Below are positions 1 to 48,227 of a DNA stretch of 64,000 bases, one piece after another. The DNA lies in sequence record NC_134263.1. One strand, 5' to 3'. Origin of the DNA: Escherichia phage T5_ev219. The translations under genes were made by a program, and so were the position numbers. The notes beneath the pieces were generated by a model. The model ran no database searches. It was not told the DNA's origin and worked only from the letters and a program-made list of their open reading frames with translations. Every line of letters begins with the position of its first letter. The stretch's first letter is position 1.

Positions 1-32
1 TACCCGTATTCTGCAAATTGAGAGGGAATTAG

Positions 33-350
33 ATGTTTAGTATTATAATTGCTTTTATTATCGGGGTACTTGCGGGAATTTTCGGAATGACTGCGGCTAT
101 TAACAAGCATCGTAAGTATACTGCGGAAGTATCGCGGGAGATTGCGGAAAGAGAGCGAAGGTTTGACGAGAAACGTGCGGAGTTTGAGCGGGAGTGGTCG
201 GATGGATCTCTTCCGCGACGCGGAAGAGATTCCGTGAGTTCAGACCAGAACACAGGTTTGATGATCCTTCTATGCGCTAATTGGGAAATCTCGAAATTTC
301 ATAAGATTACACATGGAGGTGTGCTCACTGCCCCGGGCGAAAATACTTAG
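33..350 (+). CDS. hypothetical small protein with hydrophobic N-terminus
   Basis: ORF track; N-terminal hydrophobic segment then charged region; followed by hairpin at 402-436. Confidence 0.4.
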   Translation: MFSIIIAFIIGVLAGIFGMTAAINKHRKYTAEVSREIAERERRFDEKRAEFEREWSDGSLPRRGRDSVSSDQNTGLMILLCANWEISKFHKITHGGVLTAPGENT

Positions 351-401
351 TCTGCTAACCGCCACCCCCGTTACTATTACCCTGCTAACTGTTTCACCCT
401 G

Positions 402-436
402 CAACCATTTTAATTGCAGGGTGAAACAATTTCAAC
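402..436. terminator. 13-bp-stem hairpin between convergent genes (possible bidirectional terminator)
   Basis: tttcaccctgcaa / ttgcagggtgaaa inverted repeat; flanking U-run weak. Confidence 0.4.
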
Positions 437-444
437 CTTAATTA

Positions 445-1179
445 TTATGCGACTTTTAGTTTCTCAATATATTGTTGCGGGCTGCAACTATATTCTGCGC
501 GTTCTTCCTCGGTCATACTTTCCCAACATAATTGCAGGCGGTCGGCTAGAAATTGATAATCATTATCATCCTCAAGAGATTCATCAATAAAGGTTTCACC
601 TATCAATGTAACCCCAATCGATAGAATATCGTTAATAGCTTGCGCGTCCAGCGTTTTAAATCCGTATGATGCCGCCGCTGATAGCACGCCTTTATGATCA
701 TCAATCATTGTAAAATCAGCGTTTGGATATAACTGTTTAAATAACTCAAAGTAATGGCTTTTATAAATAGCGTCTTTACTGTGGTATATCTCGCTAACTT
801 TATCAGCCTCAAAATATTTGTGTAGTGTATCGCGGGAAAACACGCGGATATTGCTTTTATCACGACCGCGCAGACCTTGTTTACGCAAATAATAATAGTC
901 CGACTTGCTCATTAGTCGAGCGGTACAAATAATGTTTAAAGTATTTGCGTCATTCATGCACTGGCGCATATATGTAACAAGGGGCAATAGTGTATCTTGC
1001 ATTATTAAATCATGTTTGCAGGCTTCATTTTTATACTTATTTAAATCTAAATTGCCCTCGCTATCAAAGCAAGGCGCTACACGATGAAACGAATTAATGA
1101 TAGTGCCGTCCAGATCCCAAATCATGACGCGGGAAATATGCGGGAAATTACGGGTAATATTCATTTTAACTTGATTCAT
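445..1179 (-). CDS. dmp: 5'-deoxyribonucleotidase (HAD-superfamily), T5 dmp-like
   Basis: 244 aa; HAD motif I DLDGTI near N-terminus; left-end position followed by A1-like gene as in T5. Confidence 0.8.
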   Translation of the reverse strand: MNQVKMNITRNFPHISRVMIWDLDGTIINSFHRVAPCFDSEGNLDLNKYKNEACKHDLIMQDTLLPLVTYMRQCMNDANTLNIICTARLMSKSDYYYLRKQGLRGRDKSNIRVFSRDTLHKYFEADKVSEIYHSKDAIYKSHYFELFKQLYPNADFTMIDDHKGVLSAAASYGFKTLDAQAINDILSIGVTLIGETFIDESLEDDNDYQFLADRLQLCWESMTEEERAEYSCSPQQYIEKLKVA

Positions 1180-1253
1180 TTTGTTACGTTCTCCATTAAA
1201 GGGATTAAATTAAATTAATCCAGCCCACTGGATGGGCTGGACTATTTCAGCTA

Positions 1254-1646
1254 TTAAAGACCATAAGCCAACGCATCAGCGATAAAACTAACATCTTCAC
1301 CCGATACACTGGAACGAATCCCCGCACAAGTATATACTTTTGCGCTGATCAATTGATCATCAAGACAAGCGGGGCAAGGCGCGACAACTGCAAAGGCTAG
1401 GCCGGATTTTACGGCGTCGATGATAATCGTTTCTTGTTTCACCGTGTCAACATAAACACCTTTTGCTTTAATATGGCTTGTCAGTTTGCCCTGCATATAT
1501 GCAAACGTTGTAACCTGCAAAGCGTCATTGAAATCTAATAATTCATCAATAACGTGCCCCGCCTCGACGTGGTAACGTTCGCCATTAGAATAAACCAGAA
1601 CAATGGAAGATTGAGCGCGATCGAATGGAATATTTTGCTTTTTCAT
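1254..1646 (-). CDS. hypothetical protein
   Basis: 130-aa ORF in pre-early block, same strand as neighbours. Confidence 0.5.
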   Translation of the reverse strand: MKKQNIPFDRAQSSIVLVYSNGERYHVEAGHVIDELLDFNDALQVTTFAYMQGKLTSHIKAKGVYVDTVKQETIIIDAVKSGLAFAVVAPCPACLDDQLISAKVYTCAGIRSSVSGEDVSFIADALAYGL

Positions 1647-1684
1647 ATTTATAAAACCCCAATTAGTTTAATAATGGATTTAAT

Positions 1685-1942
1685 TTATTTGATAATAATC
1701 TGCATCTGGTACGGCGTTAATTCACCGTTTACGGGTAAATTATTATCGCTTAGCCACTCATAAAAAGCGCCATCGTCATCAAAAGGAACAACATCATTAT
1801 CACGGGAATCGACGGAAATAATACCATCAGTATTAGTTTTAGCGGCTAGGATAGGCCCGAAGCTGTAAACTTTATCAGATTCCATTTCATCCGGTGAAAT
1901 GAATACTTTTTCGTCCAATGTTTTGGGTAATGTAACTTTCAT
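1685..1942 (-). CDS. hypothetical protein
   Basis: 85-aa ORF, compact spacing with neighbours. Confidence 0.5.
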   Translation of the reverse strand: MKVTLPKTLDEKVFISPDEMESDKVYSFGPILAAKTNTDGIISVDSRDNDVVPFDDDGAFYEWLSDNNLPVNGELTPYQMQIIIK

Positions 1943-1998
1943 TTTTTGTGACTCCTGTAATAGCGGCTATATTTCAAGCCGCTAGGGAAATAATTTAA

Positions 1999-3669
1999 TT
2001 ACGCAAAGAATTTACCGTTTTTAAAGTCGATCAAAGTGCGTTGACCGTTTGCATAGGTAATTAAATGCGTCTGCGTCCAACTTGACGCGCCAACGTTGTA
2101 GCCCATATCCAGACTACCAGCTACGCCAGCGGTATATACGCCGCCATAAATGCTGGCGGTATGGGTATGCCCCGTGTTTAACTTGCCCAATTTTTTAAAT
2201 TGTTTAGGATTGCCACGACTGCCGTTAATGCCATTGTGACCGTGTACGCCGCATTCAATGCCTGCAATCTTGAAAGATTGATCAGTGGTCAGGAAAATGG
2301 CGTTAAATTCACAACCTGCAACCTTGCGCAACGCATAATCTAGCACGTTAAACGTTTCGTCGTGTTCACCGATTGCCGCGTAAATTGCAGCATTCAGGCG
2401 GTGATATAACTCGGCGTTTGCTGGATCGTCTTTGATGTTAGCATTACGATCATCAAGCCAACGGGATAGCGCCAAATCGTGATTAGATTCAACAATGATT
2501 GTTTGACTAAAATCACGTTCCATTGATTCCAGCACGCGCCCCGTATCGATAAGATCATCCAGAACTTTATCACGTCCGGCGGCGTATTGTTTAGCTAGGA
2601 ATACACCGGATGCGCGGTTATGATGATTGCGGGATGTAAAATCGTGAACGTCATGCACAAACTGATATTTTGGTTTAAGAATATCTACTAGCCCATAAGT
2701 ATCACCATGCCCCCAAGATGCGGCGGCGCACTCCTCATCTAATTTTTCGGCGTGAATATCGCCATACTGCAAGCCTAAAACATGCCCCGATGTCTCATAG
2801 CATCCGGCAGGAGTAGCGCAAACGTTCAGATCATAAAACACCCCGCTTTCGTCCATTGTTTCAAGCTGGCGAACAAAAAATTCCCCGTCCTCATCGAACT
2901 CAACAATCAGCGCACCGAAGTTATGCAGCGCCTCGGCCTTTTGTCCTGCTTTCTGCTGAATGTAGTTTTTTAACGTTGCCGTTCCGGTTGAATACATACG
3001 GCGCACTACTTCACCTTTTAAAGCTGGCACGCTTTCAGCGGTAATTTTAGCGTGACCAATTGCCAGCCCCTCAATATTTAAAGCCGTTGCAGTCTCGGCG
3101 AATCCAGAAAGCGGATAATCTGCGGTTGGCAAAACATTAATTTCAGCCATGAAAGCAAAACGGCGATTATTCAAAAACACGTTTTTGCTGCAAATATATT
3201 TATCGAACGCGGAATCATATTTGATTCCATCCGCACCTTCCCCATTTTGGAATCCGTTTTTATTATAAATATACTTAGAAACAAGCAAATCAGCGCCGAT
3301 ATATTTAGCAAATTGCTCCAGTGAGGCTAAAAAGTTTTTATGCGGGAAAGTATTATTCTGAATCGAGGTAATAATAAAGCGTTTACCTTGTTTTACTTCC
3401 CATTGCTCCACCGTACTAGAAACAATCCCCGCCGCTTCTGGGCGTTCATCGTTTTTAATGGCTTTTGCTACTTTCGCCGCTTTCGGTTTCGCTGGTTTAT
3501 TTGCTTCCAGCCAGTCGCAGATAGCGGTCGAGTGTTTTGTAGTATCATAGACCGCTTTTGATATATCGTCGCAGACTTCCAGTTTAGTAGCGCGCAGACG
3601 TTTACCGTAGAAATTGAAGTCAGCGGCCATTTTCAGGATAACGGTTTGTTTTTCTGCGGAAATAATCAT
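1999..3669 (-). CDS. A1: pre-early A1 protein (calcineurin-like metallophosphoesterase motifs)
   Basis: Track ORF 561 aa; start at Met6 gives 556 aa with GGAG RBS 9 nt upstream; motifs GDIHAE, GHGD, SNHD. Confidence 0.8.
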   Translation of the reverse strand: MIISAEKQTVILKMAADFNFYGKRLRATKLEVCDDISKAVYDTTKHSTAICDWLEANKPAKPKAAKVAKAIKNDERPEAAGIVSSTVEQWEVKQGKRFIITSIQNNTFPHKNFLASLEQFAKYIGADLLVSKYIYNKNGFQNGEGADGIKYDSAFDKYICSKNVFLNNRRFAFMAEINVLPTADYPLSGFAETATALNIEGLAIGHAKITAESVPALKGEVVRRMYSTGTATLKNYIQQKAGQKAEALHNFGALIVEFDEDGEFFVRQLETMDESGVFYDLNVCATPAGCYETSGHVLGLQYGDIHAEKLDEECAAASWGHGDTYGLVDILKPKYQFVHDVHDFTSRNHHNRASGVFLAKQYAAGRDKVLDDLIDTGRVLESMERDFSQTIIVESNHDLALSRWLDDRNANIKDDPANAELYHRLNAAIYAAIGEHDETFNVLDYALRKVAGCEFNAIFLTTDQSFKIAGIECGVHGHNGINGSRGNPKQFKKLGKLNTGHTHTASIYGGVYTAGVAGSLDMGYNVGASSWTQTHLITYANGQRTLIDFKNGKFFA

Positions 3670-3758
3670 AGTATAAAACTCCATTAAAGGGATTAAGTTA
3701 ATAACGGCAATATTGCCAAATATAACGCCTATTATTCAAGGCGTTATAATTTGCAACA

Positions 3759-3956
3759 TTAATTTAAAGGCATAAGGCTAGAACTAACACCACAAGCAAC
3801 GGCAGCGATAAAACAAAGCAGACCTAAACGTTTTGCTAATTTAGATTTACGTTTAAAATAATATGAATCTAAATCATTTTGAAAATAAGCGAATAATAGG
3901 GAGGCCGCCATAATAAATAAGCCTAGAATTAAAGATTCAGTAGGGAAGAAAACCAT
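3759..3956 (-). CDS. small membrane protein
   Basis: 65-aa ORF, two hydrophobic segments. Confidence 0.4.
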   Translation of the reverse strand: MVFFPTESLILGLFIMAASLLFAYFQNDLDSYYFKRKSKLAKRLGLLCFIAAVACGVSSSLMPLN

Positions 3957-4046
3957 TTTTAAAACTCCTGATTTAAGGGAAGAAAATAACTATCGCTAAA
4001 CAGTTATATTATTGCCCCCTCACTAAAAGGGGGCAAGATATAACTA

Positions 4047-4454
4047 TTATTCGCCTGCGGCCTGTTTTACTTCATCGGCAACGCCTAACAATTGCGCTAC
4101 TGCGTCCAGCGTTTCAAGTTTTGCACTTTCAAGGCTTGCCAAATCATCGGCGTCTTTGATAATGCCGGAATCAATAGCATGTTTAGCGATAACGCGCACA
4201 TAGTGAGCTTTACGCACAGAGCTACCGCCGCCAACTTTACGCGGCTTATCGCTTTTTTGATAGGCTTTTGCACTGGTCAATTTTGAGCGAACGGATACGG
4301 GGGAGGCCGCGCCTACTGCTTTTGCAATCTCTTTCAGGCCGTCGCTATTTGCAAAATCTAAACCGTTTTCGTTGATTAACTGCTGGTACATGGTAACAGC
4401 TTTCTGAGTGTTTTCTTCATTCCATGCGAATTTTGCGGTTTTTGCGTTAGTCAT
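4047..4454 (-). CDS. pre-early protein, candidate A2 (small DNA-binding protein)
   Basis: 135-aa ORF immediately downstream of A1, Lys/Ala-rich; assignment by position only. Confidence 0.5.
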   Translation of the reverse strand: MTNAKTAKFAWNEENTQKAVTMYQQLINENGLDFANSDGLKEIAKAVGAASPVSVRSKLTSAKAYQKSDKPRKVGGGSSVRKAHYVRVIAKHAIDSGIIKDADDLASLESAKLETLDAVAQLLGVADEVKQAAGE

Positions 4455-4553
4455 GGTAAAAACTCCTATTAGTTTAATTTAAGGGATTTAATGATTAACC
4501 TAATGTTAATCGTTATATCCCCTTATTTCAGGGGATATAAAGTTAACACTAAT

Positions 4554-4805
4554 TTATAGTACAGCTTCCCATTTTTCGTTGCGTTGAACAACTTTTACAA
4601 CGTCGCCGGATTTAACGCGAACGCTAAAAACGGTTTTGCCGTTGTTACTACGTTCATTTTCAGCGTATACCGCGTCGATTGTATCAAACGGCATAAGCGC
4701 CGCACCTTTAATACGTTCGGCTTTTCCGGTTAGTTCATCCGTTTTAGTAACGAAAGGAATAAAAACGGATTGACCAATTTTAGGCGCGGTAATAACGTTT
4801 TTCAT
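4554..4805 (-). CDS. hypothetical protein
   Basis: 83-aa ORF. Confidence 0.45.
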   Translation of the reverse strand: MKNVITAPKIGQSVFIPFVTKTDELTGKAERIKGAALMPFDTIDAVYAENERSNNGKTVFSVRVKSGDVVKVVQRNEKWEAVL

Positions 4806-5032
4806 AATATAAACTCCTAGTTATTTGGGGATTGTTCCGCATTACCTGCTAGAAAGTAGCAGGTAATAAGCAACAATCCGCTCACCGCTATAATCAATTT
4901 AAAGAACTCCATGCAGGCCGCTATATCCCAGTTAGGGGGCGGGACACATTATGGTAAGTGCCGACCGTCAGATTTTATCAAGTTATCGCTCTTATCGAAC
5001 TGAGTACATCTTAAAGCCTATCGGCTAGGTTG

Positions 5033-5236
5033 TCAAACAATTTTTTGAGATTTTTTATGATTTTCTTTCAGGTCAATCATAATATTCCGCCAGATCATTT
5101 CTAAACCTTGCTGGCGACCTTTCTTGTACTGCGTGAATCGGTATTTTACCGATCTTTGCGCTATTGTCAACAATTTTTTAGTTTCGCTATCCAGTGCCTT
5201 GCTAGGTTTACCAGTGATCAATAAAGTTTGTTTCAT
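5033..5236 (-). CDS. hypothetical small basic protein flanked by 16-bp inverted repeats
   Basis: 67-aa ORF; perfect IR cttaaagcctatcggc at 5010-5025 and 5271-5286. Confidence 0.4.
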   Translation of the reverse strand: MKQTLLITGKPSKALDSETKKLLTIAQRSVKYRFTQYKKGRQQGLEMIWRNIMIDLKENHKKSQKIV

Positions 5237-5690
5237 ATCGTCGATTCCTTATATAATAGATAAGTTTATCGCCGATAGGCTTTAAGATATACCCAATTTT
5301 TAAAGAGCGCGGCGGTAAACTTTCCCGCCGTTGTAGTTCGTCATTGCCGCCCTACGAGATAAATAATAGCAAATGCCAAAAATGGCGCAACCTTATTTTT
5401 GTAAAGAAACGTAAAGACAAATGCCACCGGACACCGTGCGGCGACGGCCTAAAATTAAAAGAAACGGGCGCGCGAATACCACAAAACAAAGCAGATAGGC
5501 AAGTAATTTTTTCATTTATATTTGCTTCCCCTACTTGACAAAATCTAAAAAGCTCGTGGCAGCGATAAACGAGGGTAGGCAATGCAATGGCATGGCTAAA
5601 ACTTTCATCGCGTTCTAGGGCGTTTTAGGCGCCTTAAATTGGACTTAACAAATATTTAACAAAAGCAAAATTGAAAAATAGTTGAAAAAG

Positions 5691-5714
5691 GTCTTGACTT
5701 TTAAAAATCAAGAC
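5691..5714 (-). terminator. hairpin downstream of HNH gene
   Basis: gtcttga...tcaagac stem followed on minus strand by a T-run. Confidence 0.45.
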
Positions 5715-5739
5715 TAAATAAGTTAATTTAGTAAATAAA

Positions 5740-6258
5740 TTAATTGACAATTCCATATTCAGCTTTTTTAATTTCAAGCCATAATAATAACTCTTGTAAA
5801 TCATAACCAGACTTACTAACACGCTTGTTAGTAATAGGATTCTTAATTTGAGCAGTCAAATAGTCACGCCCGTAATTATCCCGGGGGCGAACTTTATTAA
5901 CGTAAATGTTTTTAGGGATACCATTAGCACGCTTACAGTTTTCATACTCACTAGGAGTGCGATTATAATTATTCTGCGAACTATCAACCGCGCGAAGATT
6001 CCAGATGTTATTATTACGAGTGTTACGATCAATATGGTCAATCATTAGCTCGCTATCTATACCGCCATTCATTATACAAAAGATAATTCTATGTACTTTG
6101 AATTGTCCCATGTCTAATAGTTCAACTTGCCAATAATTACCATTTAAACCACCTGCGATGGCGTGATCTTCTCGCCAACGTAAAAACGATAACGACGTTT
6201 CATCATAATAAAAGTAACTATTAAAAAGGTCATAATCTATATCTTTATATTTAGGCAT
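5740..6258 (-). CDS. HNH homing endonuclease
   Basis: 172 aa; HNH-like motif HRIIFCIMNG...DHIDRNTRNNNIWNLR. Confidence 0.65.
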   Translation of the reverse strand: MPKYKDIDYDLFNSYFYYDETSLSFLRWREDHAIAGGLNGNYWQVELLDMGQFKVHRIIFCIMNGGIDSELMIDHIDRNTRNNNIWNLRAVDSSQNNYNRTPSEYENCKRANGIPKNIYVNKVRPRDNYGRDYLTAQIKNPITNKRVSKSGYDLQELLLWLEIKKAEYGIVN

Positions 6259-6448
6259 CTAATTGTTTCCTTATGTTATTACTTTAATCTCTATTATATT
6301 ATATCAAAATGATTAGCAGACTAGCTAATGAGTTTTTCAGGTTTAATTAGCTGACTCATAATCACTATAAAAACCTATTAGCCAACTAACTATATTTTAC
6401 GATATAATAACTACATAAATTAGTTAGTGAGAATCACTATCATTTAAG

Positions 6449-6530
6449 TTATCCACAGACTTAATCACAGCACAAAATGATTTGACACGATAGGCGGCGA
6501 TATAAGCACTTATCCACAGACTTATCCACA
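6449..6530 (+). promoter_or_regulatory. cluster of three DnaA-box matches (TTATCCACA)
   Basis: Exact TTATCCACA at 6449-6457, 6510-6518, 6522-6530. Confidence 0.6.
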
Positions 6531-6536
6531 TGTTAT

Positions 6537-6556
6537 CCTACTGTATAAATATACAA
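6537..6556. promoter_or_regulatory. LexA-box-like palindrome, imperfect
   Basis: cctactgtataaatatacaa; CTGT-N8-ACAA, one mismatch from CTGT-N8-ACAG; inverted copy of 10066-10085. Confidence 0.4.
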
Positions 6557-6822
6557 GGTAGAAAGGTAGTGTTAACAACTGCAATCAATTTCAGGCGGCC
6601 TAAAACGCTTTCTAACGAGCTAAATGCGGTGGGGTAATATTAAAGTAAAGCCTTCACCCGTCGCCCTGGAGGCTCCGCCGTGTTTTGCTTTTTACTGCAC
6701 CGCTGCGCGGTTAGCATAAAACTAGGTGTTAGGCAAGGAAAATAAAAAGGTAAAATAATATTTGCCCCTAGAAAGAAAATACCTTTATCATTCTTCTACC
6801 GATTAACGAGGGAGGCCAACAA

Positions 6823-7815
6823 ATGAGGCTATATAAACCAGATAACGCAACCGTCTTAAAAGGTGCGCTGCGTAACCTGCTGGACGGTAGCAGAACAACC
6901 AGCATTAAACATTTTATTAACAAGGCTGAAACTATTCACCAAAACTTTTTTGATGATTATGATGCCTATGATATGGATAGTTTTCTACCATTATATAAGC
7001 AAGGGGCAACGCTAGTTTTATATAATCAGGAATCTCACTTGCTTACTAGTCGAGGGCCAGATACTGATTTTATTATAGTGAAAGGCAGTACAGTAAAAGC
7101 CTATGATGCGGGGGCGGGCTTAGAAGTTTTCTCGATAGAAAATTATGAGCCTTATGATAAGGATCTTTATGACGTAGAAAATTTTCTCGATTCATTTTGG
7201 CGTTATTTATCAATTGGGTGGAATCGGTCGGATTATGACGGGTATCGTTTTGCGGCTGTAATGGCTTTTGATGATAACGGTAATTTTTTGTTACCGTCGG
7301 AATTATACCCGTATGTATACAATGATTTAATAGAGGAGGCTGGTTTTACTTTCTGGAAAGATGAAGATCAGCCTATTGACAATATAGAAAACCATGCTGT
7401 AAATTCTAACACTCAAAGCGTTAACACTCAAATTACTGAAAACAAAGGAAAAAATACCATGACCAAGATCGCTAATATCGTTGCCGCTAATAAATCCGCT
7501 GTTGTAAATGCTGCAAAACTGGAGGCGGGTAAAATTGCATTAACTCAAATTACGAAAGTAGCGGCTAAAAAAGCACCATTCATGATCAAAGGTTATATCG
7601 ATACGCCTATTGGTCGAGTAGTGATTGCTAACCTGCTGAGTGTAGCGGTTGACCAATACGCCCCAAATAACCAAAAGGCGAAAGCGGTAGCAGGGGCGGC
7701 TATGGAAGCGGCAATGCTGGAAATGGTGCAAAGTTTTAACATCGCTGAAATGATTGATGAAATGGTGAAAGGTATTGATATTTCTACTTTTACCACTAGC
7801 ACCGAAATCGAGTAA
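6823..7815 (+). CDS. hypothetical protein
   Basis: 330-aa ORF with GGGAGG RBS; Ala/Lys-rich C-terminus. Confidence 0.6.
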   Translation: MRLYKPDNATVLKGALRNLLDGSRTTSIKHFINKAETIHQNFFDDYDAYDMDSFLPLYKQGATLVLYNQESHLLTSRGPDTDFIIVKGSTVKAYDAGAGLEVFSIENYEPYDKDLYDVENFLDSFWRYLSIGWNRSDYDGYRFAAVMAFDDNGNFLLPSELYPYVYNDLIEEAGFTFWKDEDQPIDNIENHAVNSNTQSVNTQITENKGKNTMTKIANIVAANKSAVVNAAKLEAGKIALTQITKVAAKKAPFMIKGYIDTPIGRVVIANLLSVAVDQYAPNNQKAKAVAGAAMEAAMLEMVQSFNIAEMIDEMVKGIDISTFTTSTEIE

Positions 7816-7880
7816 TAATATTTAGTGGGGATTATTTCCCCACTTTACTATTCCCTTGTTAATTAATAGGAGGATAATAA

Positions 7881-8375
7881 ATGGCTGAGGAAAAATACGG
7901 CTTCTCGCTAGGGGAAGTGAGCACGGCTAAACACGATATGATCATTTTGGTTGATTGTCATACGGGTTACTGCGGTGAAGGGAATACCGAAGAATATTTT
8001 GTTCCTGCTGGTACGGATCTCGACGCTTTCGCTCATGAAATGGCGGTTGATAATGCTTCTCGTTTTGGTAGCGATGGTTATGAAGATGAAGAAACTGGCG
8101 ATTGGTATGAGAATGATAATGTATATGCAAGCCTTTATCATTATCAATTAAGTAAATCCGGCACGTATGTAAACGGCGGCGATCCTATTAATTCCGTCAT
8201 GAAATTAATTATTAAATATGGTGGCGCTGAGATAATTGGTAACAAAGCGGTATTATACGCAAATCGATTAAAACAGCTTGTTTATATCCCTGATAGTACC
8301 CGATGGGAGGAATATGCTGTTTTGCATGACGAATTGAAACGATGTTTCAATATTGAATCCTTGCAGGTAGTCTAA
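7881..8375 (+). CDS. hypothetical protein
   Basis: 164-aa ORF with AGGAGG RBS. Confidence 0.6.
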   Translation: MAEEKYGFSLGEVSTAKHDMIILVDCHTGYCGEGNTEEYFVPAGTDLDAFAHEMAVDNASRFGSDGYEDEETGDWYENDNVYASLYHYQLSKSGTYVNGGDPINSVMKLIIKYGGAEIIGNKAVLYANRLKQLVYIPDSTRWEEYAVLHDELKRCFNIESLQVV

Positions 8376-8479
8376 TGTAAAGTTTTGTAAAGGTCGCCTT
8401 TTATGGTGGCCTTTTTTGTTATAATGCCTTTACACCAAAACGGTGGATTGAAAATTTCCCAAAAATTTGGAGGCTTAAA

Positions 8480-8710
8480 ATGGTTGCATACTCTTCTGCT
8501 AGTCATCTGTTCACCGCTCAAGGTTGGGTGTCTAATCGCGTAATCATTCATGAAATGGTGCAGGAGTTCGGCATTGCTAAAACTTATAACACCATCCAAG
8601 AACTATACAACGCCGATAAAATCGATCAGCAAACGGCGGGCTTTTTGCTGGACACGCTGAAAGCGGAACACTGTACTAAAAAACAAGCGGCAAAAATTGT
8701 TTTAATGTAA
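8480..8710 (+). CDS. hypothetical protein
   Basis: 76-aa ORF. Confidence 0.5.
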   Translation: MVAYSSASHLFTAQGWVSNRVIIHEMVQEFGIAKTYNTIQELYNADKIDQQTAGFLLDTLKAEHCTKKQAAKIVLM

Positions 8711-8910
8711 TTAATAACGGGGCGTTACTTTCGCCCCACTAACTAGGGGAGTATTACAAATGGTTATTTTTCGAGCTATTTTAGCTGGTATCTTGGGCGC
8801 TATTTTATCACTTTTTGCAATAGCTTTCGGCGTTCACGCGGTTATTATTGGTGCGGGTATCGCCGTTTTTTCTTATTTGCTGGGCTGCATGAGTAAAGGA
8901 GAATAAAAAA

Positions 8911-9123
8911 ATGATTCGTAACGTTTCCCTTGCACGTTCAAAGGGTTTTAAGCTGGTGGATGTAAACACGTTTGAGCGGGAGGATTGTAAAATTGAATAT
9001 GTAGCACGTAACAAAAATGCCTTTCGTGTTACCGAGAAAAAATTTGACAAGCGCGGCAACGTGGTCGCTGAAACAGTTAAACACTTTGCCACCTTTTACG
9101 CGGCTTTTCGTGGGGTGTTATAA
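8911..9123 (+). CDS. hypothetical protein
   Basis: 70-aa ORF with AGGAG RBS. Confidence 0.45.
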   Translation: MIRNVSLARSKGFKLVDVNTFEREDCKIEYVARNKNAFRVTEKKFDKRGNVVAETVKHFATFYAAFRGVL

Positions 9124-9124
9124 A

Positions 9125-9469
9125 ATGGTTATTTATGAGGGCAATCGTTTTGTTGCTAATTGCCGTCCGGCATTACTAGCAAACTATTTAAACCAGCTTT
9201 CCCCAGCTTACAAGGGCGTTATTAATATTTATGAGGGCAAGGCGCATTATAAAATTAATGCGGTCGTTGCCCGTGAACTAGCGTTTCAATTTTTGACCTT
9301 TGCATCTTGTGACGTTCAGGTTATGGGTGAAGCATTAATTGCGGAAAATGAAGATGATTTTATTAATATTTTCCGCAAGGTATGTACCGAGCGCCTGATA
9401 ATGAAAGGCGCATATATTCAATCCACTGCGGATAGTATTGAAACAGCGTTTCGAAAGGTGGCGCAATGA
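9125..9469 (+). CDS. hypothetical protein
   Basis: Track ORF 9017..9469 trimmed to Met at 9125, which abuts the stop of the upstream gene. Confidence 0.5.
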   Translation: MVIYEGNRFVANCRPALLANYLNQLSPAYKGVINIYEGKAHYKINAVVARELAFQFLTFASCDVQVMGEALIAENEDDFINIFRKVCTERLIMKGAYIQSTADSIETAFRKVAQ

Positions 9470-9494
9470 GATTATATAATAACGGAGCGTTATT

Positions 9495-9698
9495 ATGAGC
9501 AATAAAATTGTTGTAACCAAAATCAGTACAATGGTTGACGTTTTTTATGTGCCCGATACGCCGGAAAACCGACAAGCGGTCGAGCGGGGCGAATATGATA
9601 GCGTTATTTATGATGCCGATGGTTATTATCATCATTTGGTCGATTCCTATGGGGAAGAGGAGAAGATCACGCATCGACTACCCGAGGGGGATTTATGA
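9495..9698 (+). CDS. hypothetical protein
   Basis: 67-aa ORF. Confidence 0.45.
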   Translation: MSNKIVVTKISTMVDVFYVPDTPENRQAVERGEYDSVIYDADGYYHHLVDSYGEEEKITHRLPEGDL

Positions 9699-9849
9699 AA
9701 CGATGGTTTAATCACTGGTATAAGCGGTTTTTAGTACGCCGTCGCAAGTCTAGACAACAAGATGAGTGGCGGGAGTGGGCAAAGCGTAACGGTTGCCCAC
9801 TACTATAATAATAACGGGGCGCAACTATCAGGGAGTGCCCCCAATTCTC

Positions 9850-9870
9850 AAATGAGAATCATTCTCATTT
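9850..9870. repeat. 21-bp perfect palindrome
   Basis: aaatgagaatcattctcattt. Confidence 0.7.
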
Positions 9871-10065
9871 GACCGCGCCCGCGATGGTTAGCCTGCTAAT
9901 GATTAGGGTGTTACGTGTCGCCTTGTGTGATCGTTAGCGAGCTAACTAATTTTCAAGCCTCCTCCAATTTTGCCCTTGTTTTAGTATCCCCACCAAAATT
10001 AAACGCGTTAGAATGCGATCTAGGACGTTTTAACGCTATATTAGAACTATTCACTGCATAGGAAT

Positions 10066-10085
10066 ACTGTATATTTATACAGTAG
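10066..10085. promoter_or_regulatory. LexA (SOS) box consensus palindrome
   Basis: tactgtatatttatacagta contains CTGT-N8-ACAG; adjacent TTATCAACA-like motifs and a perfect DnaA box (ctgtggataa) at 10166-10175. Confidence 0.5.
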
Positions 10086-10189
10086 GATAAGCTGTTGATA
10101 AGTCTGTTGATAACGCTTCAAAATGGCTAGGATTCTGTCAAGTCAAATCGTGCTGTTAATAAGCCTGTGGATAACTTAAATAACAGTGT

Positions 10190-10370
10190 TTCTCATTCCC
10201 GTTTTTAAACGAGAATCATTATCATTCGCATTCCACTATCTAACTGATAATCATTCCACTTTTTAAATGAGAATCATTTCACTTCCTGAATAATTTTCAT
10301 TTCACTTTCTAAATGCAAATCATTATCATTCGCATTCCGCTTTTTAAATGCGAATGATTCTCATTTGTAT
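10190..10370. repeat. array of degenerate ~20-35-bp repeats
   Basis: tttttaaa(c/t)g(a/c)gaatcatt units at 10202, 10260, 10340; atcattatcattcgcattcc twice. Confidence 0.65.
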
Positions 10371-10408
10371 TAGCATTCAGGCGAGCAGGGCAATTGCCCT
10401 GCGCTTTT

Positions 10409-11010
10409 GTGCAAATCCGACATTTGCCCCCATGGATTACACGTGGGCGTGTATGTGCAAATCCGACAATTTTTGGTAGTGTGCAAATCCGACCCGAAAA
10501 ATTTTTATAGTGTGCGAATCCGACAATGAATTTTCCCAAAAACTCCAGCAATCACGAACTGCGTTCGAATCCTGTGGAATTAGCTAGAGTATGTGCAGAT
10601 CCGACATGAGTTTATTTGTGCGAATCCGACAAGATTTTTGTGACTTCGATTGGAGGGTGTGTGATTGTATAGGTTTGAGGAGAAGGTGAGAGAGCGAGAA
10701 AAATTTGGGAGGCTAGAAGGATGTGGGCGCAGGATTGGTGCGGAGCACCTGATTTGCGGGGATTTTGGGGAATAGTTGAGATAATTTGGGAAGATTTGAG
10801 ATAGGTGCAGAAAAAGTGAAATTTTATTAGCTAAACGGGGTAAAATAGCTTGACAAGTGAAAATTCTTGTGGCTCTAAAAACTCAGGCAATCATGGGCCT
10901 TCGGCCCGAAATAATGCTGCCATTTTCAGGGTTCCTAAAAACTTAGGAGACTCCTGTCATTGTGCAAATCCGACCATAAATTTCTAGAAACACAATGTGC
11001 AAATCCGACA
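10409..11010 (+). repeat. eight same-orientation copies of 14-bp motif GTGC(A/G)(A/G)ATCCGAC(A/C)
   Basis: Copies at 10409, 10455, 10480, 10512, 10593, 10618, 10962, 10997; ninth copy at 12851 inside an ORF. Confidence 0.7.
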
Positions 11011-11518
11011 GTAATTTCTGGAAATGTGTTTTCAAAAAATGTCTTCTAGAAATAACCGCCCTCCCTATAACCGCCCTGTATTAACCGCCTATTGCTGGAG
11101 TTTCTAGGAACATGAAAACCGCCTGAGTTGACTAGAGAAACAGATTTAAAGTTTAATGTAAACTCTAGAGTTAGTGCTCAACTATTCCTAGAAACTTAGG
11201 AATCTAGAAGAAAGTGTTGTGCCATCCTAGCAGATGAGCGGCAACAGGTGTATCATCTTGAACACAGATATTGCCTTTAAATATTTTTTAGTTATTTAAA
11301 AGTAAATATACCCCCATTTCATGAGAGCTTACTCGTGGGGCGCGTGAGTATTACGGAAGACTTAGTAATTAGATCTATACTCGTGCTGTCGCAACGTATA
11401 GACGTAATACTAAGTGTAATAATCATCGCCCCTAGAGTTCAAAACAAGAGTTGTTTTTAATCTATGAGATTATTATAACATGTGCCGCAATGAGTTGTCA
11501 AGAAGATTTTGTTAATGT

Positions 11519-11875
11519 TTATACATCTCCTTCGAAATTGGTATTGGGATCGTAAATCTTTTTGGCTCCTGTATTTAATAGGAATCGTTCTGCAAGTTGT
11601 GGGTGAATATCAAAGAACTCTGTACATCCTTCGAATCCCTTTAAATTACAGCGGTATTTCTTAAAGTAGATATGAGCAGCGGCTTCTAGATCTCTAGGGT
11701 TATGGGTTTCATAGATTCCATACACATATAAATCGTCAAAACCTCGATAGACTATCTTATCTAAGTTTAGAGTTTGAATCCTATTATGTGGATTCATGCT
11801 AATACCGATCTTTGTTCTCTTAGGGATCTTTGTCAGATCCCTGTTCGCAAGAATATATACTTTATATAGTGACAT
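11519..11875 (-). CDS. GIY-YIG-like domain protein
   Basis: 118 aa; YKVYILAN...KIGIS.NP..R motif pattern. Confidence 0.5.
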   Translation of the reverse strand: MSLYKVYILANRDLTKIPKRTKIGISMNPHNRIQTLNLDKIVYRGFDDLYVYGIYETHNPRDLEAAAHIYFKKYRCNLKGFEGCTEFFDIHPQLAERFLLNTGAKKIYDPNTNFEGDV

Positions 11876-12593
11876 TCTTTCTAGCCTTTAGATAGATTCC
11901 TTTAGATGCTAAATAAATATATGTAGCAAGGAATGAAGATGTAGATCCTGTTTCTTCAAGAGTAATAGATCCCTTTGCATAACGCTTGGTTCTAGGAGCC
12001 TGGTTAAGCACAAGCGCAGTGAGACTGCCTAATCCTAGAGCATCCATTAGACGTTTGAAGGAGTCCTTTTCATCATGGATAGCGTATAGAATATAATCTT
12101 CCGCTGTAGTAAGTTCTATGCCACGATGATGTGCCACTGCAATCCGTGCTACTACAGCTCCAATCGTTCTATAAATATCTTCAAACGTGATACTAGTTTC
12201 AAATGCTAACGCTGGAAGATGATCGAACTTACATTTCTTAGGCGGAATGTATAATTGTTCTGGATATGCTTCTAATGCTTCTCTAGCAGATGTTTCTCTA
12301 TAAGCCGGGAGAGGTTCATCAATGATAACATGAATATAGTTTCCCATGTGACCTTTAGCAGTGGGGTCTAAAGACTTGAGGAGTTTATTCATATCAACGT
12401 AAGAATAAGCAAGGTCAGCTTTTGCTGCTTTGTTATCATACTTAATCTTACCCCCCTCCCATCTAGCTGGGAACATTTCGCAAACAAACATTACTGCATG
12501 TTTCTCTTCAGTGGTTAAATCAGAGAAACAGCGATGATCAGCCCCCTTAGCGAGGGCTAGAATATTCTTAAACTTTACAGCCAAATCTTTCAT
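11862..12593 (-). CDS. hypothetical protein
   Basis: 243-aa ORF. Confidence 0.6.
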   Translation of the reverse strand: MKDLAVKFKNILALAKGADHRCFSDLTTEEKHAVMFVCEMFPARWEGGKIKYDNKAAKADLAYSYVDMNKLLKSLDPTAKGHMGNYIHVIIDEPLPAYRETSAREALEAYPEQLYIPPKKCKFDHLPALAFETSITFEDIYRTIGAVVARIAVAHHRGIELTTAEDYILYAIHDEKDSFKRLMDALGLGSLTALVLNQAPRTKRYAKGSITLEETGSTSSFLATYIYLASKGIYLKARKNVTI

Positions 12594-13207
12594 TAACTAC
12601 CTCTCTTATTCTCGTCAATAACAGCTCCCAATGCCTCCATAATAGTATCTTCTAAGCTTCCATGTTTACTAGGATTATTAAAATGAATAGTATAAACAGA
12701 GTTCCTAGAAACTCCAGCATCCGCAGGTGCTACGCTTCGCATATCAGATTCAAAAGCTTCTTGAGTATGTTTCAATTGCACAGAAGGGCCGTAATCTTCC
12801 CCAAACTTATATGACTTCGTACTACTTACCACACCCCCACAAGGAACATTGTGCAAATCCGACATTAATCTTTTATCGGAGTTATTCAGCATTGGGATTG
12901 TCCCTGACTGCCACGGATCTCTAATAGTCACTGGAGTACTGGGACGATTTACCTCAGTCTTCACAAGTTTGTATCCTGCATCGATCAGTGCATTAATCAG
13001 GTTATCAGCCGGGATGCGAGCCGTACCAAAAATCTTACGAGCATCTTCGAGCTTACCTTCAAGATCTTTGCAGGCTTTAAGGTCAGTGTGTGCAAATGTT
13101 AGCTTCATAGATTTGAATTGTACAGTAGCAGTTAAATCTTTAAAGCTATAATCCCATGTGTTCAGTTCATGGTCTGGTACTACTTGAATAGGTTGTTGTG
13201 TAAACAT
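12593..13207 (-). CDS. hypothetical protein
   Basis: 204-aa ORF; contains one copy of the 14-bp GTGCAAATCCGACA motif. Confidence 0.6.
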   Translation of the reverse strand: MFTQQPIQVVPDHELNTWDYSFKDLTATVQFKSMKLTFAHTDLKACKDLEGKLEDARKIFGTARIPADNLINALIDAGYKLVKTEVNRPSTPVTIRDPWQSGTIPMLNNSDKRLMSDLHNVPCGGVVSSTKSYKFGEDYGPSVQLKHTQEAFESDMRSVAPADAGVSRNSVYTIHFNNPSKHGSLEDTIMEALGAVIDENKRGS

Positions 13208-47751: not shown

Positions 47752-48127
47752 CTAACCATCCTATGTCTATACTAAGTAATGCTTTTATTCCTGTAATACC
47801 TGTACCATAAGTATTATATCGAATAGCACTTCTGCTCTTTACTTCAAGTATATTTTCATGCTCTGTATTTTCTAGAATTTCTGTAGATATACCTAAATAT
47901 CCTAATTGATCTTCCTCGTCCCAACCCATATCTTCTAGAAGATTTAGACGTAACTCTACCTTCTCATCTCCATTGCCTACAGAGTAGTAGTCTTCTAAAG
48001 TCCTGAATTTAGAAGTGATAGAGTCTAGTATTAATAATACCTGTTCCTTAGTAACAGTTTCTTTATCACTCTGCAAGTAATTGGAGTAACTCAGAAGGGC
48101 TTGTTCTAATTCAATTTCTTTACTCAT
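47744..48127 (-). CDS. hypothetical acidic protein
   Basis: Track ORF trimmed to Met25 with AAAGGA RBS. Confidence 0.45.
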   Translation of the reverse strand: MSKEIELEQALLSYSNYLQSDKETVTKEQVLLILDSITSKFRTLEDYYSVGNGDEKVELRLNLLEDMGWDEEDQLGYLGISTEILENTEHENILEVKSRSAIRYNTYGTGITGIKALLSIDIGWLDE

Positions 48128-48227
48128 TTTATTATCCTTTTTGTACTTATTGAGTATATTATATTTGAAATTGTACTTAATAAGCAAATACAATTTCAAA
48201 TATAATAGCCCCGAAGGGCTATTTAAG

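What the first reader, a model, noticed from the sequence alone, without database searches (positions are those of the whole stretch)
9840..11500. Repeat-dense non-coding region, candidate injection-stop or terminal-repeat boundary
About 1.6 kb has no convincing ORF but is packed with ordered repeats: a 21-bp perfect palindrome (9850-9870), an array of ~20-35-bp units (10190-10370), eight same-orientation copies of GTGC(A/G)(A/G)ATCCGAC(A/C) between 10409 and 11010 with a ninth at 12851, four AACCGCC copies (11045-11095) and repeated TTCTAGAA-like motifs. T5 pauses DNA entry after the first ~8 percent of the genome at a repeat-rich locus; this region fits that position but the assignment is inference.
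Basis: partly seen in the sequence, partly recalled or inferred. Interest (0 to 1): 0.7.

Follow-up and report, generated by a model that had tools for sequence, protein, structure and literature searches.

The report
Phage T5 injection-stop repeat region
This is the already-described repeat-packed, non-coding right end of the long terminal repeat of a T5-like phage, where DNA entry pauses and the repeat ends. Its conserved palindromes turn out to look like binding sites for the host proteins LexA, DnaA and Fur, which makes the unsolved pause mechanism testable.

Summary
The window is a T5-like phage (Tequintavirus), and 9840-11500 is the homologue of T5 "Repeat Region 3".

- **Identity:** window 9973-11262 is 90.8% identical to T5 9317-10608.
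- **Mapped T5 features:** the annotated injection stop signal maps to about 9689-10805, the 7.9% nick to 10404|10405 (minus strand), and the terminal-repeat end to 10875|10876.
- **The 13-mer:** GTGCRRATCCGAC occurs nine times, all on the plus strand (0.05 expected). T5 has the same copies, which are probably the published "DRD" repeats.

The finding is therefore already known (1987-2020 literature).

Three things were not mentioned in the T5 papers I could read.

- **LexA-like palindrome:** the palindrome beside the DnaA boxes (10065-10084) matches the LexA SOS-box consensus 19/20, better than recA, lexA or sulA. It is kept next to DnaA boxes in every Demerecviridae lineage sampled.
- **Fur-like repeats:** the 23-35-bp repeat units score like real Fur operators.
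- **Iterons:** the iteron motif changes between lineages, which suggests a phage-encoded binder.

A conserved promoter, long-hairpin and terminator unit lies at 11501-11300 on the minus strand.

The parts
322..10875 (.). Inferred long terminal repeat (first-step-transfer DNA), 10,554 bp. The left boundary is 321|322 and the right boundary is 10875|10876.
   Evidence: The T5 junction before its right repeat aligns on both sides of 321|322. The repeat ends of T5, Shivani, SIY1lw and MM-2 all map to 10875. Window 1-321 matches the unique DNA just before the right repeat in other records.
6426..6555 (.). Inverted partner of 10067-10195 (T5 'IRC-spacer-IRD', Repeat Region 2). It carries three TTATCCACA DnaA boxes (6449, 6510, 6522), a degenerate LexA-like box at 6539 and a Fur-like box at 6428.
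   Evidence: Inverse BLAST match of 75-79% to the iss region. Motifs.
9816..9953 (+). End of the rightward pre-early operon. It holds the hairpin GGGGCGC...GTGCCCC (9816-9842), the perfect 25-bp palindrome 9848-9872 (an extra Fur-like unit, TGAGAATCATTCTCA) and the hairpin GTTAGCGAGCTAAC plus a T-run (9933-9953). T5 has a simple terminator here instead.
   Evidence: (I20).
10065..10084 (.). Palindrome TACTGTATATTTATACAGTA (probably T5 'palD'). It matches the LexA SOS-box consensus at 19 of 20 positions.
   Evidence: It is the only match with at most 3 mismatches in 64 kb, with 0.02 expected. Real E. coli operators score 14-17/20. CTGTAT-N4-ATACAG is kept in Klebsiella, Pantoea, Proteus, Vibrio and Aeromonas phages and in 47 IMG/VR loci.
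10093..10174 (+). Two pairs of DnaA and DnaA-like boxes, with 3 bp between the boxes of each pair: TGTTGATAA at 10093 and 10105, TGTTAATAA at 10154, and TGTGGATAA at 10166. This corresponds to T5 IRD'-spacer-IRC'.
   Evidence: The layout matches the description in Davison 2020. The boxes are invariant islands in the cross-genus alignment.
10190..10370 (.). Array of 23-35-bp units (T5 DRE1/DRE2 and DRC). The unit cores CGAGAATCATTATCA (10210), TGCAAATCATTATCA (10314) and TGCGAATGATTCTCA (10349) resemble the Fur 7-1-7 box.
   Evidence: The units score 14-15/19 to the Fur consensus with pairs offset by 6 bp, the same range as the fhuA, fepA, entS and entC operators. The array is enriched in the repeat.
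10385..10405 (-). Hairpin GCAGGGCAATTGCCCTGC followed by GCGC. This is the homologue of the T5 major (7.9%) single-strand interruption, predicted at 10404|10405 on the minus strand.
   Evidence: The T5 feature at 9748/9749 maps here with identical flanks. Seafire's PhageTerm 'repeat end' falls at the same place.
10408..10632 (+). Six same-strand iterons TGTGCRRATCCGACM (probably T5 DRD1-6), with start-to-start spacings of 46, 26, 31, 81 and 25 bp.
10631..10860 (+). G-rich, C-poor tract (7% C), the most C-depleted stretch of the window. It includes a 20-bp tandem at 10765-10804.
   Evidence: (D8). The composition is conserved in T5, Klebsiella and Pantoea phages.
10850..10907 (+). Terminal-repeat end context TTGACA-N18-TAAAAA, with the boundary inside GTGGCTC|TAAAAAC, followed by the hairpin GGGCCTTCGGCCC (10895-10907).
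   Evidence: The boundary sequence is conserved in Klebsiella and Pantoea phages while the flanks diverge.
10961..11011 (+). Two further iterons (DRD7-8), 35 bp apart, in unique DNA 86-136 bp beyond the repeat end.
   Evidence: They are present in every relative checked, including MM-2 and Shivani.
11044..11230 (.). Short-motif cluster: AACCGCC x4 (11054-11123), the TTCCTAGAAAC family (11095 minus strand, 11185 plus strand) and eight CTAG sites.
11300..11501 (-). Perfect sigma-70 promoter (TTGACA-18-TATAAT, 11501-11472), a small 5' hairpin, a 96-nt hairpin (11432-11337) and a terminator-like hairpin (11328-11310). This is a candidate small structured RNA, or the end-of-operon structure of the leftward early genes.
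12850..12864 (+). Ninth iteron, inside the 204-aa gene 12593-13207 (minus strand). A TTCCTAGAAACTCCAG copy lies at 12702 in the same gene.
   Evidence: It is present in T5, Lindwurm, HdH2 and MET_P1 but mutated in Kenya-K18.

Best explanation
**Identity (shown, about 0.97).** The interval is the non-coding right end of the long terminal repeat of a T5-like phage plus the first ~600 bp of unique DNA. It is the homologue of T5 'Repeat Region 3'. It carries the genetically defined injection stop signal, the 7.9% nick site and the repeat/unique junction (10875|10876).

**Anatomy (shown).** The region is an ordered set of modules:
1. operon-end hairpins;
2. a LexA-consensus palindrome abutting two pairs of DnaA boxes, with an inverted copy 3.6 kb to the left;
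3. an array of Fur-box-like units;
4. a hairpin with the nick site;
5. six same-strand iterons;
6. a C-poor tract;
7. the repeat end;
8. two more iterons.

**Mechanism (inferred, about 0.3-0.4).**
- The invariant motifs are sites for host proteins: DnaA, as Davison proposed, plus LexA and possibly Fur.
- These proteins load on the first DNA to enter. Together with the inverted partner, they build a nucleoprotein complex that holds the DNA at the envelope, so that transfer pauses at about 8%.
- The iterons lie just beyond the entered DNA and on both sides of the repeat end, and their sequence changes between phage lineages. They are therefore sites for a phage-encoded protein.
- The candidate proteins are the pre-early A2/A1 pair, for restarting transfer, or the small terminase subunit, for cutting the repeat end.
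For: **Identity**
- Window 9973-11262 is 90.8% identical to T5 9317-10608.
- The T5 annotations of the repeat, iss and nick map into the interval.
- Four independent records put the repeat end at 10875.
- The published description of Repeat Region 3 matches what is seen: paired DnaA boxes 3 bp apart, two DRE copies, nine DRD copies, and an overrun of 270 bp into unique DNA.

**Host-factor sites**
- The LexA-like box scores 19/20, against 14-17/20 for the recA, lexA and sulA operators.
- Across genera the arms CTGTAT/ATACAG and the DnaA boxes are invariant islands in otherwise diverged DNA.
- Among the 78 loci fetched through A1, 80 of the 84 CTGT-N8-ACAG boxes lie in the 47 T5-type loci. Seventy-six of the 84 lie within 120 bp of a DnaA box.
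- The 30 A1-bearing contigs that are not T5-like (511 kb) have 4 boxes, none near a DnaA box.
- Fur-like units score 14-15/19, with pairs offset by 6 bp. This matches real Fur operators, which score 13-16/19.
- The repeat holds 5 sites with at most 2 mismatches against 0.16 expected, and the other 53 kb holds none.
- In the Klebsiella phage the units have drifted yet sit closer to the Fur consensus.

**Phage-factor iterons**
- The same motif, strand and spacing occur across Tequintavirus and Epseptimavirus.
- The same motif occurs in Klebsiella and Pantoea phages.
- Vibrio phage has a variant, TATGTGCGAAA, and Aeromonas and Proteus phages have different iterons.
- Clusters lie on both sides of the conserved repeat-end sequence in three lineages.
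Against: - No binding has been measured for any of these sites. All of the host-factor assignments rest on sequence resemblance.
- Proteins that bind DNA already inside the cell do not obviously stop DNA that is still in the tail.
- T5 ejects all of its DNA in vitro (Davison 2020).
- The Fur-like units are paralogous copies, so the counts are not independent. They are also absent from the Vibrio phage, and no site with at most 2 mismatches was found in the three loci with 46% A1 identity.
- All known hosts are Gammaproteobacteria and share one LexA motif. The decisive test, covariation between host and motif, could therefore not be run.
- The iteron array tolerates a 540-bp HNH gene insertion (Shivani) and the loss of copies (MM-2).
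- Davison 2015 and Heusterspreute 1987 could not be read. An earlier mention of LexA or Fur cannot be excluded.
Confidence: 0.45

Rival explanations
1. Packaging signal. The iterons, together with the conserved GTGGCTC|TAAAAAC sequence, are the terminase recognition and cleavage site that creates the right genome end. The left end enters the cell first, so by the usual rule it is packaged last, and packaging would start at this right end. The iterons would then act like the flanking terminase sites of SPP1 pacL/pacR or lambda cosB. On this reading the injection stop is a separate function of the DNA to the left.
For: - The repeat end maps between two iteron clusters in this phage, the Klebsiella phage and the Pantoea phage. 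The cut-site sequence is conserved while its flanks diverge.
- The two iterons just outside the repeat are present in every relative checked.
- Lineage-specific iterons fit a phage-encoded binder.
- The last-in, first-out rule for packaging is established knowledge from T7, lambda and SPP1.
Against: - No similar motif or iteron lies at the left repeat boundary.
- A ninth copy sits 2 kb away inside a gene.
- The direction of T5 packaging and its terminase site were not established by anything read here.
- Four annotated repeat ends fall elsewhere: Kenya-K18 at window 10774, chee24 and saus132 at ~10666, and Seafire at the nick site.
Confidence: 0.3
2. DnaA-only model (Davison 2020). Membrane-associated DnaA binds the eight DnaA boxes and arrests the DNA. 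An A1/A2 nuclease then cuts to the right to release it. On this reading the iterons are further weak DnaA boxes, and the LexA-like and Fur-like resemblances are incidental.
For: - The paired DnaA boxes are conserved in all lineages.
- The reverse complement of the iteron, ATTTGCACA, matches 8 of the 9 positions of TTWTNCACA. Some Klebsiella and Pantoea copies match all 9.
- All iterons share the orientation of the DnaA boxes in this region.
Against: - The invariant half of the iteron, ATCCGAC, lies outside a DnaA box. Its variable positions fall on positions 3-4 of the DnaA-box consensus.
- The Aeromonas and Proteus iterons have no DnaA-box core.
- The LexA-like arms are conserved as strictly as the DnaA boxes. 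Chance resemblance would not predict that.
Confidence: 0.2
3. Phage proteins only. The palindromes and repeats are bound by phage-encoded proteins, such as the A2 dimer, or they act as DNA or RNA structures (cruciforms, terminators). Their likeness to host operators is coincidental.
For: - A2 is annotated as a DNA-binding protein and is conserved in all lineages. A1 and A2 are both required for second-step transfer.
- The region is dense in inverted repeats and hairpins.
- AT-rich palindromes resemble many operators.
Against: - A phage protein that is only 34-42% identical between lineages would be expected to drag its site along with it. The LexA-like arms and the DnaA boxes do not change, whereas the iterons do.
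- The match to the LexA consensus is better than that of real operators.
Confidence: 0.2
4. Replication or maintenance element. DnaA boxes, same-strand iterons and an AT-rich repeat array together make up a plasmid-type origin or partition site.
For: - The combination of DnaA boxes and 8-10 direct iterons is the classic layout of iteron origins (established knowledge). It is seen here.
Against: - According to Davison 2020, T5 origins were mapped near the genome centre. The replication genes are in the second-step DNA and are not expressed during the pause.
- No initiator gene lies next to the array.
Confidence: 0.07

Closest known systems
Bacteriophage T5 injection stop signal / 'Repeat Region 3' of the left terminal repeat (Heusterspreute 1987; Wang 2005; Davison 2015, 2020)
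   Same: - It is orthologous DNA at 90.8% identity.
- The order of elements is the same: paired DnaA boxes, two DRE copies, nick site, DRD iterons, and a repeat end with overrun into unique DNA.
- The iteron spacing is the same.
   Different: - This phage has a 136-bp segment with a 25-bp palindrome where T5 has a simple terminator.
- It lacks T5's degenerate ninth in-array iteron (T5 10478).
- The DNA to the right of 11262 is not T5-like.
E. coli LexA operators (SOS boxes; consensus TACTG(TA)5CAGTA)
   Same: - The box is CTGT-N8-ACAG with an AT-rich centre, scores 19/20, and has conserved arms with a variable centre.
   Different: - It is not placed over an obvious promoter of a downstream gene.
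- It sits beside DnaA boxes in non-coding DNA.
- LexA binding is untested.
Fur operators (19-bp Fur box; 7-1-7 model; clusters with 6-bp offsets, Chen et al. 2007, PMC2189734)
   Same: - The units score in the range of the fhuA, fepA-fes, fepD-entS and fepB-entC operators.
- They show overlapping sites offset by 6 bp.
   Different: - Most units carry GAGAAT in place of GATAAT.
- The units are repeated every 23-46 bp in non-promoter DNA.
- They are absent from the Vibrio phage, and no site with at most 2 mismatches was found in the loci with 46% A1 identity.
Terminase recognition sites made of repeated boxes around a cut site (SPP1 pacL/pacR, lambda cosB R sites)
   Same: - Repeated short boxes lie on both sides of a sequence-specific genome end.
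   Different: - The phage has long (10.5 kb) direct terminal repeats.
- No matching boxes lie at the other boundary.
- No binding data exist. The comparison with SPP1 and lambda comes from memory, not from a test.
oriC-type DnaA assemblies (high-affinity boxes nucleating same-orientation weak sites)
   Same: - High-affinity TTATCCACA boxes lie beside an array of same-strand sites that match the DnaA box at 8 of 9 positions.
   Different: - No replication function is expected here.
- The iterons carry an extra invariant half, ATCCGAC.

Membership tests
T5 injection stop signal / Repeat Region 3 | Sequence homology to the annotated T5 iss (NC_005859 9140-10149). | tested here: met
   Window 9477-9811 is 91.0% identical to T5 8936-9270, and window 9973-11262 is 90.8% identical to T5 9317-10608.
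T5 injection stop signal / Repeat Region 3 | Position at the right end of the terminal repeat, after the rightward pre-early operon, overrunning into unique DNA. | tested here: met
   The repeat is inferred as 322-10875. The last pre-early ORFs end at 9698 and 9808, and the repeats continue to ~11230.
T5 injection stop signal / Repeat Region 3 | A ~131-bp inverted repeat with paired DnaA boxes 3 bp apart, and a partner in Repeat Region 2. | tested here: met
   Box pairs lie at 10093/10105 and 10154/10166. The inverse partner is at 6426-6555.
T5 injection stop signal / Repeat Region 3 | Two DRE copies and a series of about nine DRD direct repeats. | tested here: met
   The 76-nt copies are at 10190 and 10294. 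There are eight in-array iterons plus one inside a gene. Equating the 13-mer with 'DRD' is inferred from count and position, because the figure and supplements are not held.
T5 injection stop signal / Repeat Region 3 | DNA transfer actually pauses here in vivo. | not testable with these tools
   This needs a blender-shear or time-resolved sequencing experiment.
Direct terminal repeat boundary | The sequence is duplicated at both genome ends up to this base. | tested here: inconclusive
   The window holds one copy (a collapsed assembly). By homology, four of eight annotated records end at window 10875. The other four end at 10774, 10667, 10665 and 10403.
LexA SOS box | A CTGT-N8-ACAG palindrome close to TACTG(TA)5CAGTA. 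| tested here: met
   The box scores 19/20, against 16, 15, 14 and 17 for the recA, lexA and sulA operators.
LexA SOS box | Bound by LexA and overlapping a regulated promoter. | not testable with these tools
   Only weak promoter-like matches lie nearby, and there are no binding data.
Fur box | Match to the 19-bp or 7-1-7 consensus in the range of proven operators, with overlapping sites offset by 6 bp. | tested here: met
   The units score 14-15/19 and 13/15, with pairs at 9848/9854, 10205/10211 and 10309/10315. The enrichment is shown.
Fur box | Bound by Fur-Fe2+. | not testable with these tools
   This needs a gel shift, a Fur titration assay or chromatin immunoprecipitation.
Terminase pac/cos-type recognition site | Repeated boxes flanking a conserved cut site. 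| tested here: met
   Iteron clusters lie on both sides of GTGGCTC|TAAAAA in three lineages.
Terminase pac/cos-type recognition site | Bound by the small terminase subunit and required for end formation. | not testable with these tools
   No data exist. The left boundary shares no motif with the right boundary.
Iteron-type replication origin | An adjacent initiator gene and mapped initiation. | tested here: not met
   No initiator-like gene is nearby. T5 origins are reported near the genome centre.

The most novel reading that the evidence does not exclude
The T5 injection-stop region is a landing pad for host repressors.

- A LexA operator stronger than any of the three chromosomal operators checked, together with DnaA boxes (and Fur boxes in phages of enteric bacteria), captures host proteins on the first DNA to enter.
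- This complex causes or times the pause.
- Destruction of host DNA by the pre-early genes, which should activate RecA and cleave LexA, or displacement by A1/A2 at the neighbouring phage-specific iterons, then licenses second-step transfer.

None of the T5 papers I could read or search mentions LexA or Fur at this site.
Probability: 0.25. Interest if true: 0.75.

Novelty: already known. Interest (0 to 1): 0.35.

Why it matters
How T5 stops DNA entry at about 8% and restarts it is still unsolved. The classic two-step transfer work is decades old, and a 2026 paper still calls the mechanism "poorly understood".

The region flagged here is the known locus, so finding it is not new. The comparative reading is what adds value.

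- It separates motifs that never change across genera (the LexA-like palindrome and the DnaA boxes) from motifs that change with the phage lineage (the iterons).
- It therefore gives concrete, inexpensive tests with host mutants and purified proteins.
- It also gives a usable annotation for the hundreds of T5-like therapeutic and biocontrol phage genomes. In those records the region is filled with spurious ORFs, and the repeat end is placed inconsistently, once at the nick site.

Tried and rejected
- **Shared cut-site motif.** I looked for a motif common to the left (321|322) and right (10875|10876) repeat boundaries. The best local alignment scored below the shuffle mean, in this phage and in T5, so I rejected the idea.
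- **Rfam.** A scan of 9000-12500 at E-value up to 1 found nothing.
- **Hidden gene.** Some relatives annotate a ~177-aa ORF across the iterons (chee24, Seafire). In this phage it is broken to 80 aa with a TTG start, and T5 annotates nothing there. I do not consider it a gene.
- **Vibrio phage Kronos.** I fetched it to test the position of the iterons relative to the repeat end in a distant lineage. The record is not terminus-defined, so it was unusable.
- **Perfect Fur box at 554-568, inside dmp.** It may simply reflect the coding of an acidic peptide (E-D-D-N-D-Y-Q on the minus strand) with AT-rich codons. I did not count it as evidence of function.
- **Covariation of the iteron motif with A2 identity.** The result is compatible with A2 as the binder but does not discriminate, because all phage proteins diverge together.
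- **Earlier literature.** Davison 2015, the supplements of Davison 2020 and Heusterspreute 1987 could not be obtained.
- **sRNA literature search.** A search for a described T5 small RNA at the early-region edge returned nothing relevant.
Full report
**What the window is.** A BLAST search of 9700-11600 against phage records finds 456 T5-like phages, 118 of them covering at least 80% of the query. The T5 reference aligns with the window from T5 base 5 (window 326) onward. Window 1-321 matches the unique DNA that lies just before the right terminal repeat in other records. The T5 junction ...CATGAAGGTG|TGTCCACTGCC aligns on both sides of window 321|322. The window therefore comes from an assembly in which the two terminal repeats are collapsed into one copy, and the repeat starts at 322.

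**Checking the observation.**
- The palindrome is a perfect 25-mer at 9848-9872.
- The array at 10190-10370 has periods of 23 and 35 bp and two 76-nt copies.
- GTGCRRATCCGAC occurs nine times, always on the plus strand, and nowhere else in 64 kb (0.05 expected). A T precedes each copy.
- AACCGCC occurs at 11054, 11069, 11083 and 11117.
- TTCTAGAA and a longer family, TTCCTARAAACTYMRG, are enriched.
- No ORF longer than 80 aa lies in the interval, and Rfam finds nothing.

**What it is.** The T5 RefSeq record annotates the left terminal repeat as 1-10219, the injection stop signal as 9140-10149 and a major single-strand interruption at 9748/9749.
- A three-way alignment maps these to window ~9689-10805, 10404|10405 and 10875|10876.
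- T5 has the same iterons at the same spacing.
- Davison's preprint (10.1101/866236) describes this DNA as "Repeat Region 3". It lists paired DnaA boxes 3 bp apart inside IRD'-spacer-IRC', an inverted partner in Repeat Region 2, two DRE repeats, nine DRD repeats and a 270-bp overrun into unique DNA. All of these are seen here.
- The annotated repeat ends of T5, Shivani, SIY1lw and MM-2 map to window 10875, inside GTGGCTC|TAAAAAC.
- Other records place the end at 10774 or ~10666. Seafire's PhageTerm call falls at 10403, which is the nick site.

**Conservation.** Iteron number, strand and spacing (46, 26, 31, 81, 25, 344, 35 bp) are kept in Tequintavirus and Epseptimavirus.
- Shivani carries an HNH gene inside the array and MM-2 has only five copies, so the array tolerates disruption.
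- I fetched the first-step-transfer regions of more distant T5-like phages through their A1 genes: Klebsiella, Pantoea, Proteus, Vibrio and Aeromonas phages, with A1 34-74% identical.
- The Klebsiella and Pantoea phages keep GTGCAAATCCGAC (10 and 8 copies, same strand), although the surrounding DNA no longer aligns.
- The Vibrio phage has the variant TATGTGCGAAA.
- The Aeromonas phage has a different iteron, CTAGATGTTTAGACGGCTAGA x5. The Proteus phage has another, GAATAATAGAATGGTGGG, about 10 copies.
- The repeat-end sequence AAAATTCYTGTGGCTC|TAAAAA is conserved in the Klebsiella and Pantoea phages, with iteron clusters on both sides.
- The 221 nt before the end are the most C-poor of the whole window (7% C). 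That property is also conserved.

**The LexA-like palindrome.** This was not mentioned in the T5 papers I could read. The palindrome next to the DnaA boxes, TACTGTATATTTATACAGTA (10065-10084), matches the LexA SOS-box consensus at 19 of 20 positions.
- It is the only such site in 64 kb, with 0.02 expected.
- The real E. coli operators fetched from MG1655 score 16 (recA), 15 and 14 (lexA) and 17 (sulA).
- CTGTAT-N4-ATACAG is present beside the DnaA boxes in all five distant lineages, usually in both inverted copies. In a cross-genus alignment the two arms and the DnaA boxes are invariant islands in diverged DNA.
- In 78 IMG/VR loci recovered with an A1 alignment, the 47 T5-type loci carry 80 of the 84 boxes. 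Seventy-six of the 84 lie within 120 bp of a DnaA box.
- The 30 A1-bearing contigs that are not T5-like (511 kb) have 4 boxes, none near a DnaA box.

**The Fur-like units.** The cores of the 23-35-bp units (TGAGAATCATTCTCA, CGAGAATCATTATCA, TGCAAATCATTATCA, TGCGAATGATTCTCA) resemble the Fur 7-1-7 box TGATAATnATTATCA.
- Scored against the 19-bp Fur consensus they reach 14-15/19, with overlapping sites offset by 6 bp. Chen et al. describe this arrangement for real Fur clusters.
- The fhuA, fepA-fes, fepD-entS and fepB-entC operators score 13-16/19 by the same measure.
- The repeat holds five sites with at most 2 mismatches against 0.16 expected. The other 53 kb holds none.
- In the Klebsiella phage the units have drifted but sit closer to the Fur consensus, with four copies at a 35-bp period.
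- The three 46-bp units of the Proteus phage contain a 12-nt stretch identical to the Fur consensus.
- The Vibrio phage shows no Fur-like units in this region, and the three loci with 46% A1 identity have no site with at most 2 mismatches. This feature is therefore narrower than the LexA and DnaA sites.
- Literature searches for Fur or LexA together with T5 found nothing relevant. Davison 2020 mentions neither. A 2026 paper still lists only repeats, palindromes and DnaA boxes.
- Davison 2015 and Heusterspreute 1987 could not be read.

**How it most likely works.**
- *Shown:* the identity of the region, the order of its modules and the conservation patterns.
- *Inferred:* motifs that stay constant while phage proteins fall to 34% identity are read by conserved host proteins (DnaA, LexA and, in phages of enteric bacteria, Fur). 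Motifs that change with the lineage are read by a phage protein.
- *Preferred model (about 0.3-0.4):* host proteins assemble on the entered DNA, possibly bridging the two inverted copies. This complex holds the DNA so that transfer pauses. A phage factor acting on the iterons, which lie just beyond the entered DNA and around the repeat end, restarts transfer or marks the cut.
- *Main rival (about 0.3):* the iterons are terminase sites for the right genome end, by analogy with SPP1 pac and lambda cosB, and the stop signal is separate.
- *Other rivals:* Davison's DnaA-only model, in which the iterons (8/9 matches to a DnaA box) are weak DnaA sites; a model in which only phage proteins bind; and an origin-like reading, which fits least.

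**Also in the interval.** A perfect sigma-70 promoter on the minus strand (11501-11472) reads into a 177-nt segment that folds at -55.9 kcal/mol (z = -6.3).
- The segment has a small hairpin, a 96-nt hairpin (11432-11337) and a terminator-like hairpin.
- The promoter and transcript start are conserved in Tequintavirus, Epseptimavirus and the Klebsiella phage, and the Proteus phage and T5 carry analogous promoters.
- The long hairpin has at least nine unrelated sequences, yet it always folds (z = -3.5 to -8.6 for eight variants; -5.7 for the T5 unit).
- It is unannotated in the records inspected.

**Verdict.** The feature is already known. Its value lies in the testable host-factor hypothesis and in cleaner annotation.

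Noticed in passing
window 11300-11501, minus strand (T5: L001 ~10625-10868, minus strand): This is a conserved unit: a perfect sigma-70 promoter, a small hairpin, a 95-130-nt hairpin and a terminator-like hairpin. The long hairpin differs completely in sequence between phages (at least 9 variants) but always folds (z = -3.5 to -8.6). There is no Rfam match, and it is not annotated in the records inspected. It is either a candidate abundant small RNA or the end-of-operon structure of the leftward early genes.
   Followed up: partly
window 549-568 (inside the dmp gene, ~230 bp from the left repeat end): A perfect Fur 7-1-7 box, TGATAATCATTATCA, scores 17/19 to the 19-bp Fur consensus. It is also present in T5 (233) and the Klebsiella phage (158). 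It may only reflect the coding of an acidic peptide with AT-rich codons.
   Followed up: partly
window 10631-10860: This is the most C-depleted stretch of the 64-kb window (7% C, 37% G on the plus strand), and it lies directly before the repeat end. The skew is conserved in T5, Klebsiella and Pantoea phages even though the sequence diverges. I have no explanation for it.
   Followed up: partly
window 10850-10881: A promoter-like sequence, TTGACA-N18-TAAAAA, points rightward, and its -10 element coincides with the inferred repeat end. The arrangement is kept in the Klebsiella and Pantoea phages.
   Followed up: no
L009 (Salmonella phage Seafire) locus 710 = window 10403: The 'terminal repeat predicted with PhageTerm' in this record ends exactly at the homologue of the T5 7.9% nick. 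The nick was probably mistaken for a genome end. Other records place the repeat end at three further positions (window 10774, ~10666, 10875).
   Followed up: partly
L008 (Salmonella phage Shivani) locus 758-1297: An HNH endonuclease gene is inserted inside the iteron array, between the third and fourth copies. Phage MM-2 has only five copies. The array is therefore not spacing-critical.
   Followed up: partly
window 9695-9808, plus strand: A 37-aa basic ORF (MKRWFNHWYKRFLVRRRKSRQQDEWREWAKRNGCPLL) overlaps the stop codon of the last pre-early gene (ATGA). The DNA is conserved at about 91% in T5, where it is not annotated.
   Followed up: no
window 47870-49844: Five of the eleven exact TTCTAGAA sites of the window cluster here, far from the finding. 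The motif is over-represented across the window (11 against 2.15 expected).
   Followed up: no
window 12593-13207, minus-strand gene: One iteron (12850) and one TTCCTAGAAACTCCAG copy (12702) lie 150 bp apart inside a gene for a 204-aa protein of unknown function. Each is present in some relatives and mutated in others.
   Followed up: partly
window 11519-11875, minus strand: A 118-aa protein with a T5orf172/MUG113 domain, of the homing-endonuclease type (Pfam E = 5e-12). T5 has different DNA at this position, so the gene is probably mobile.
   Followed up: partly
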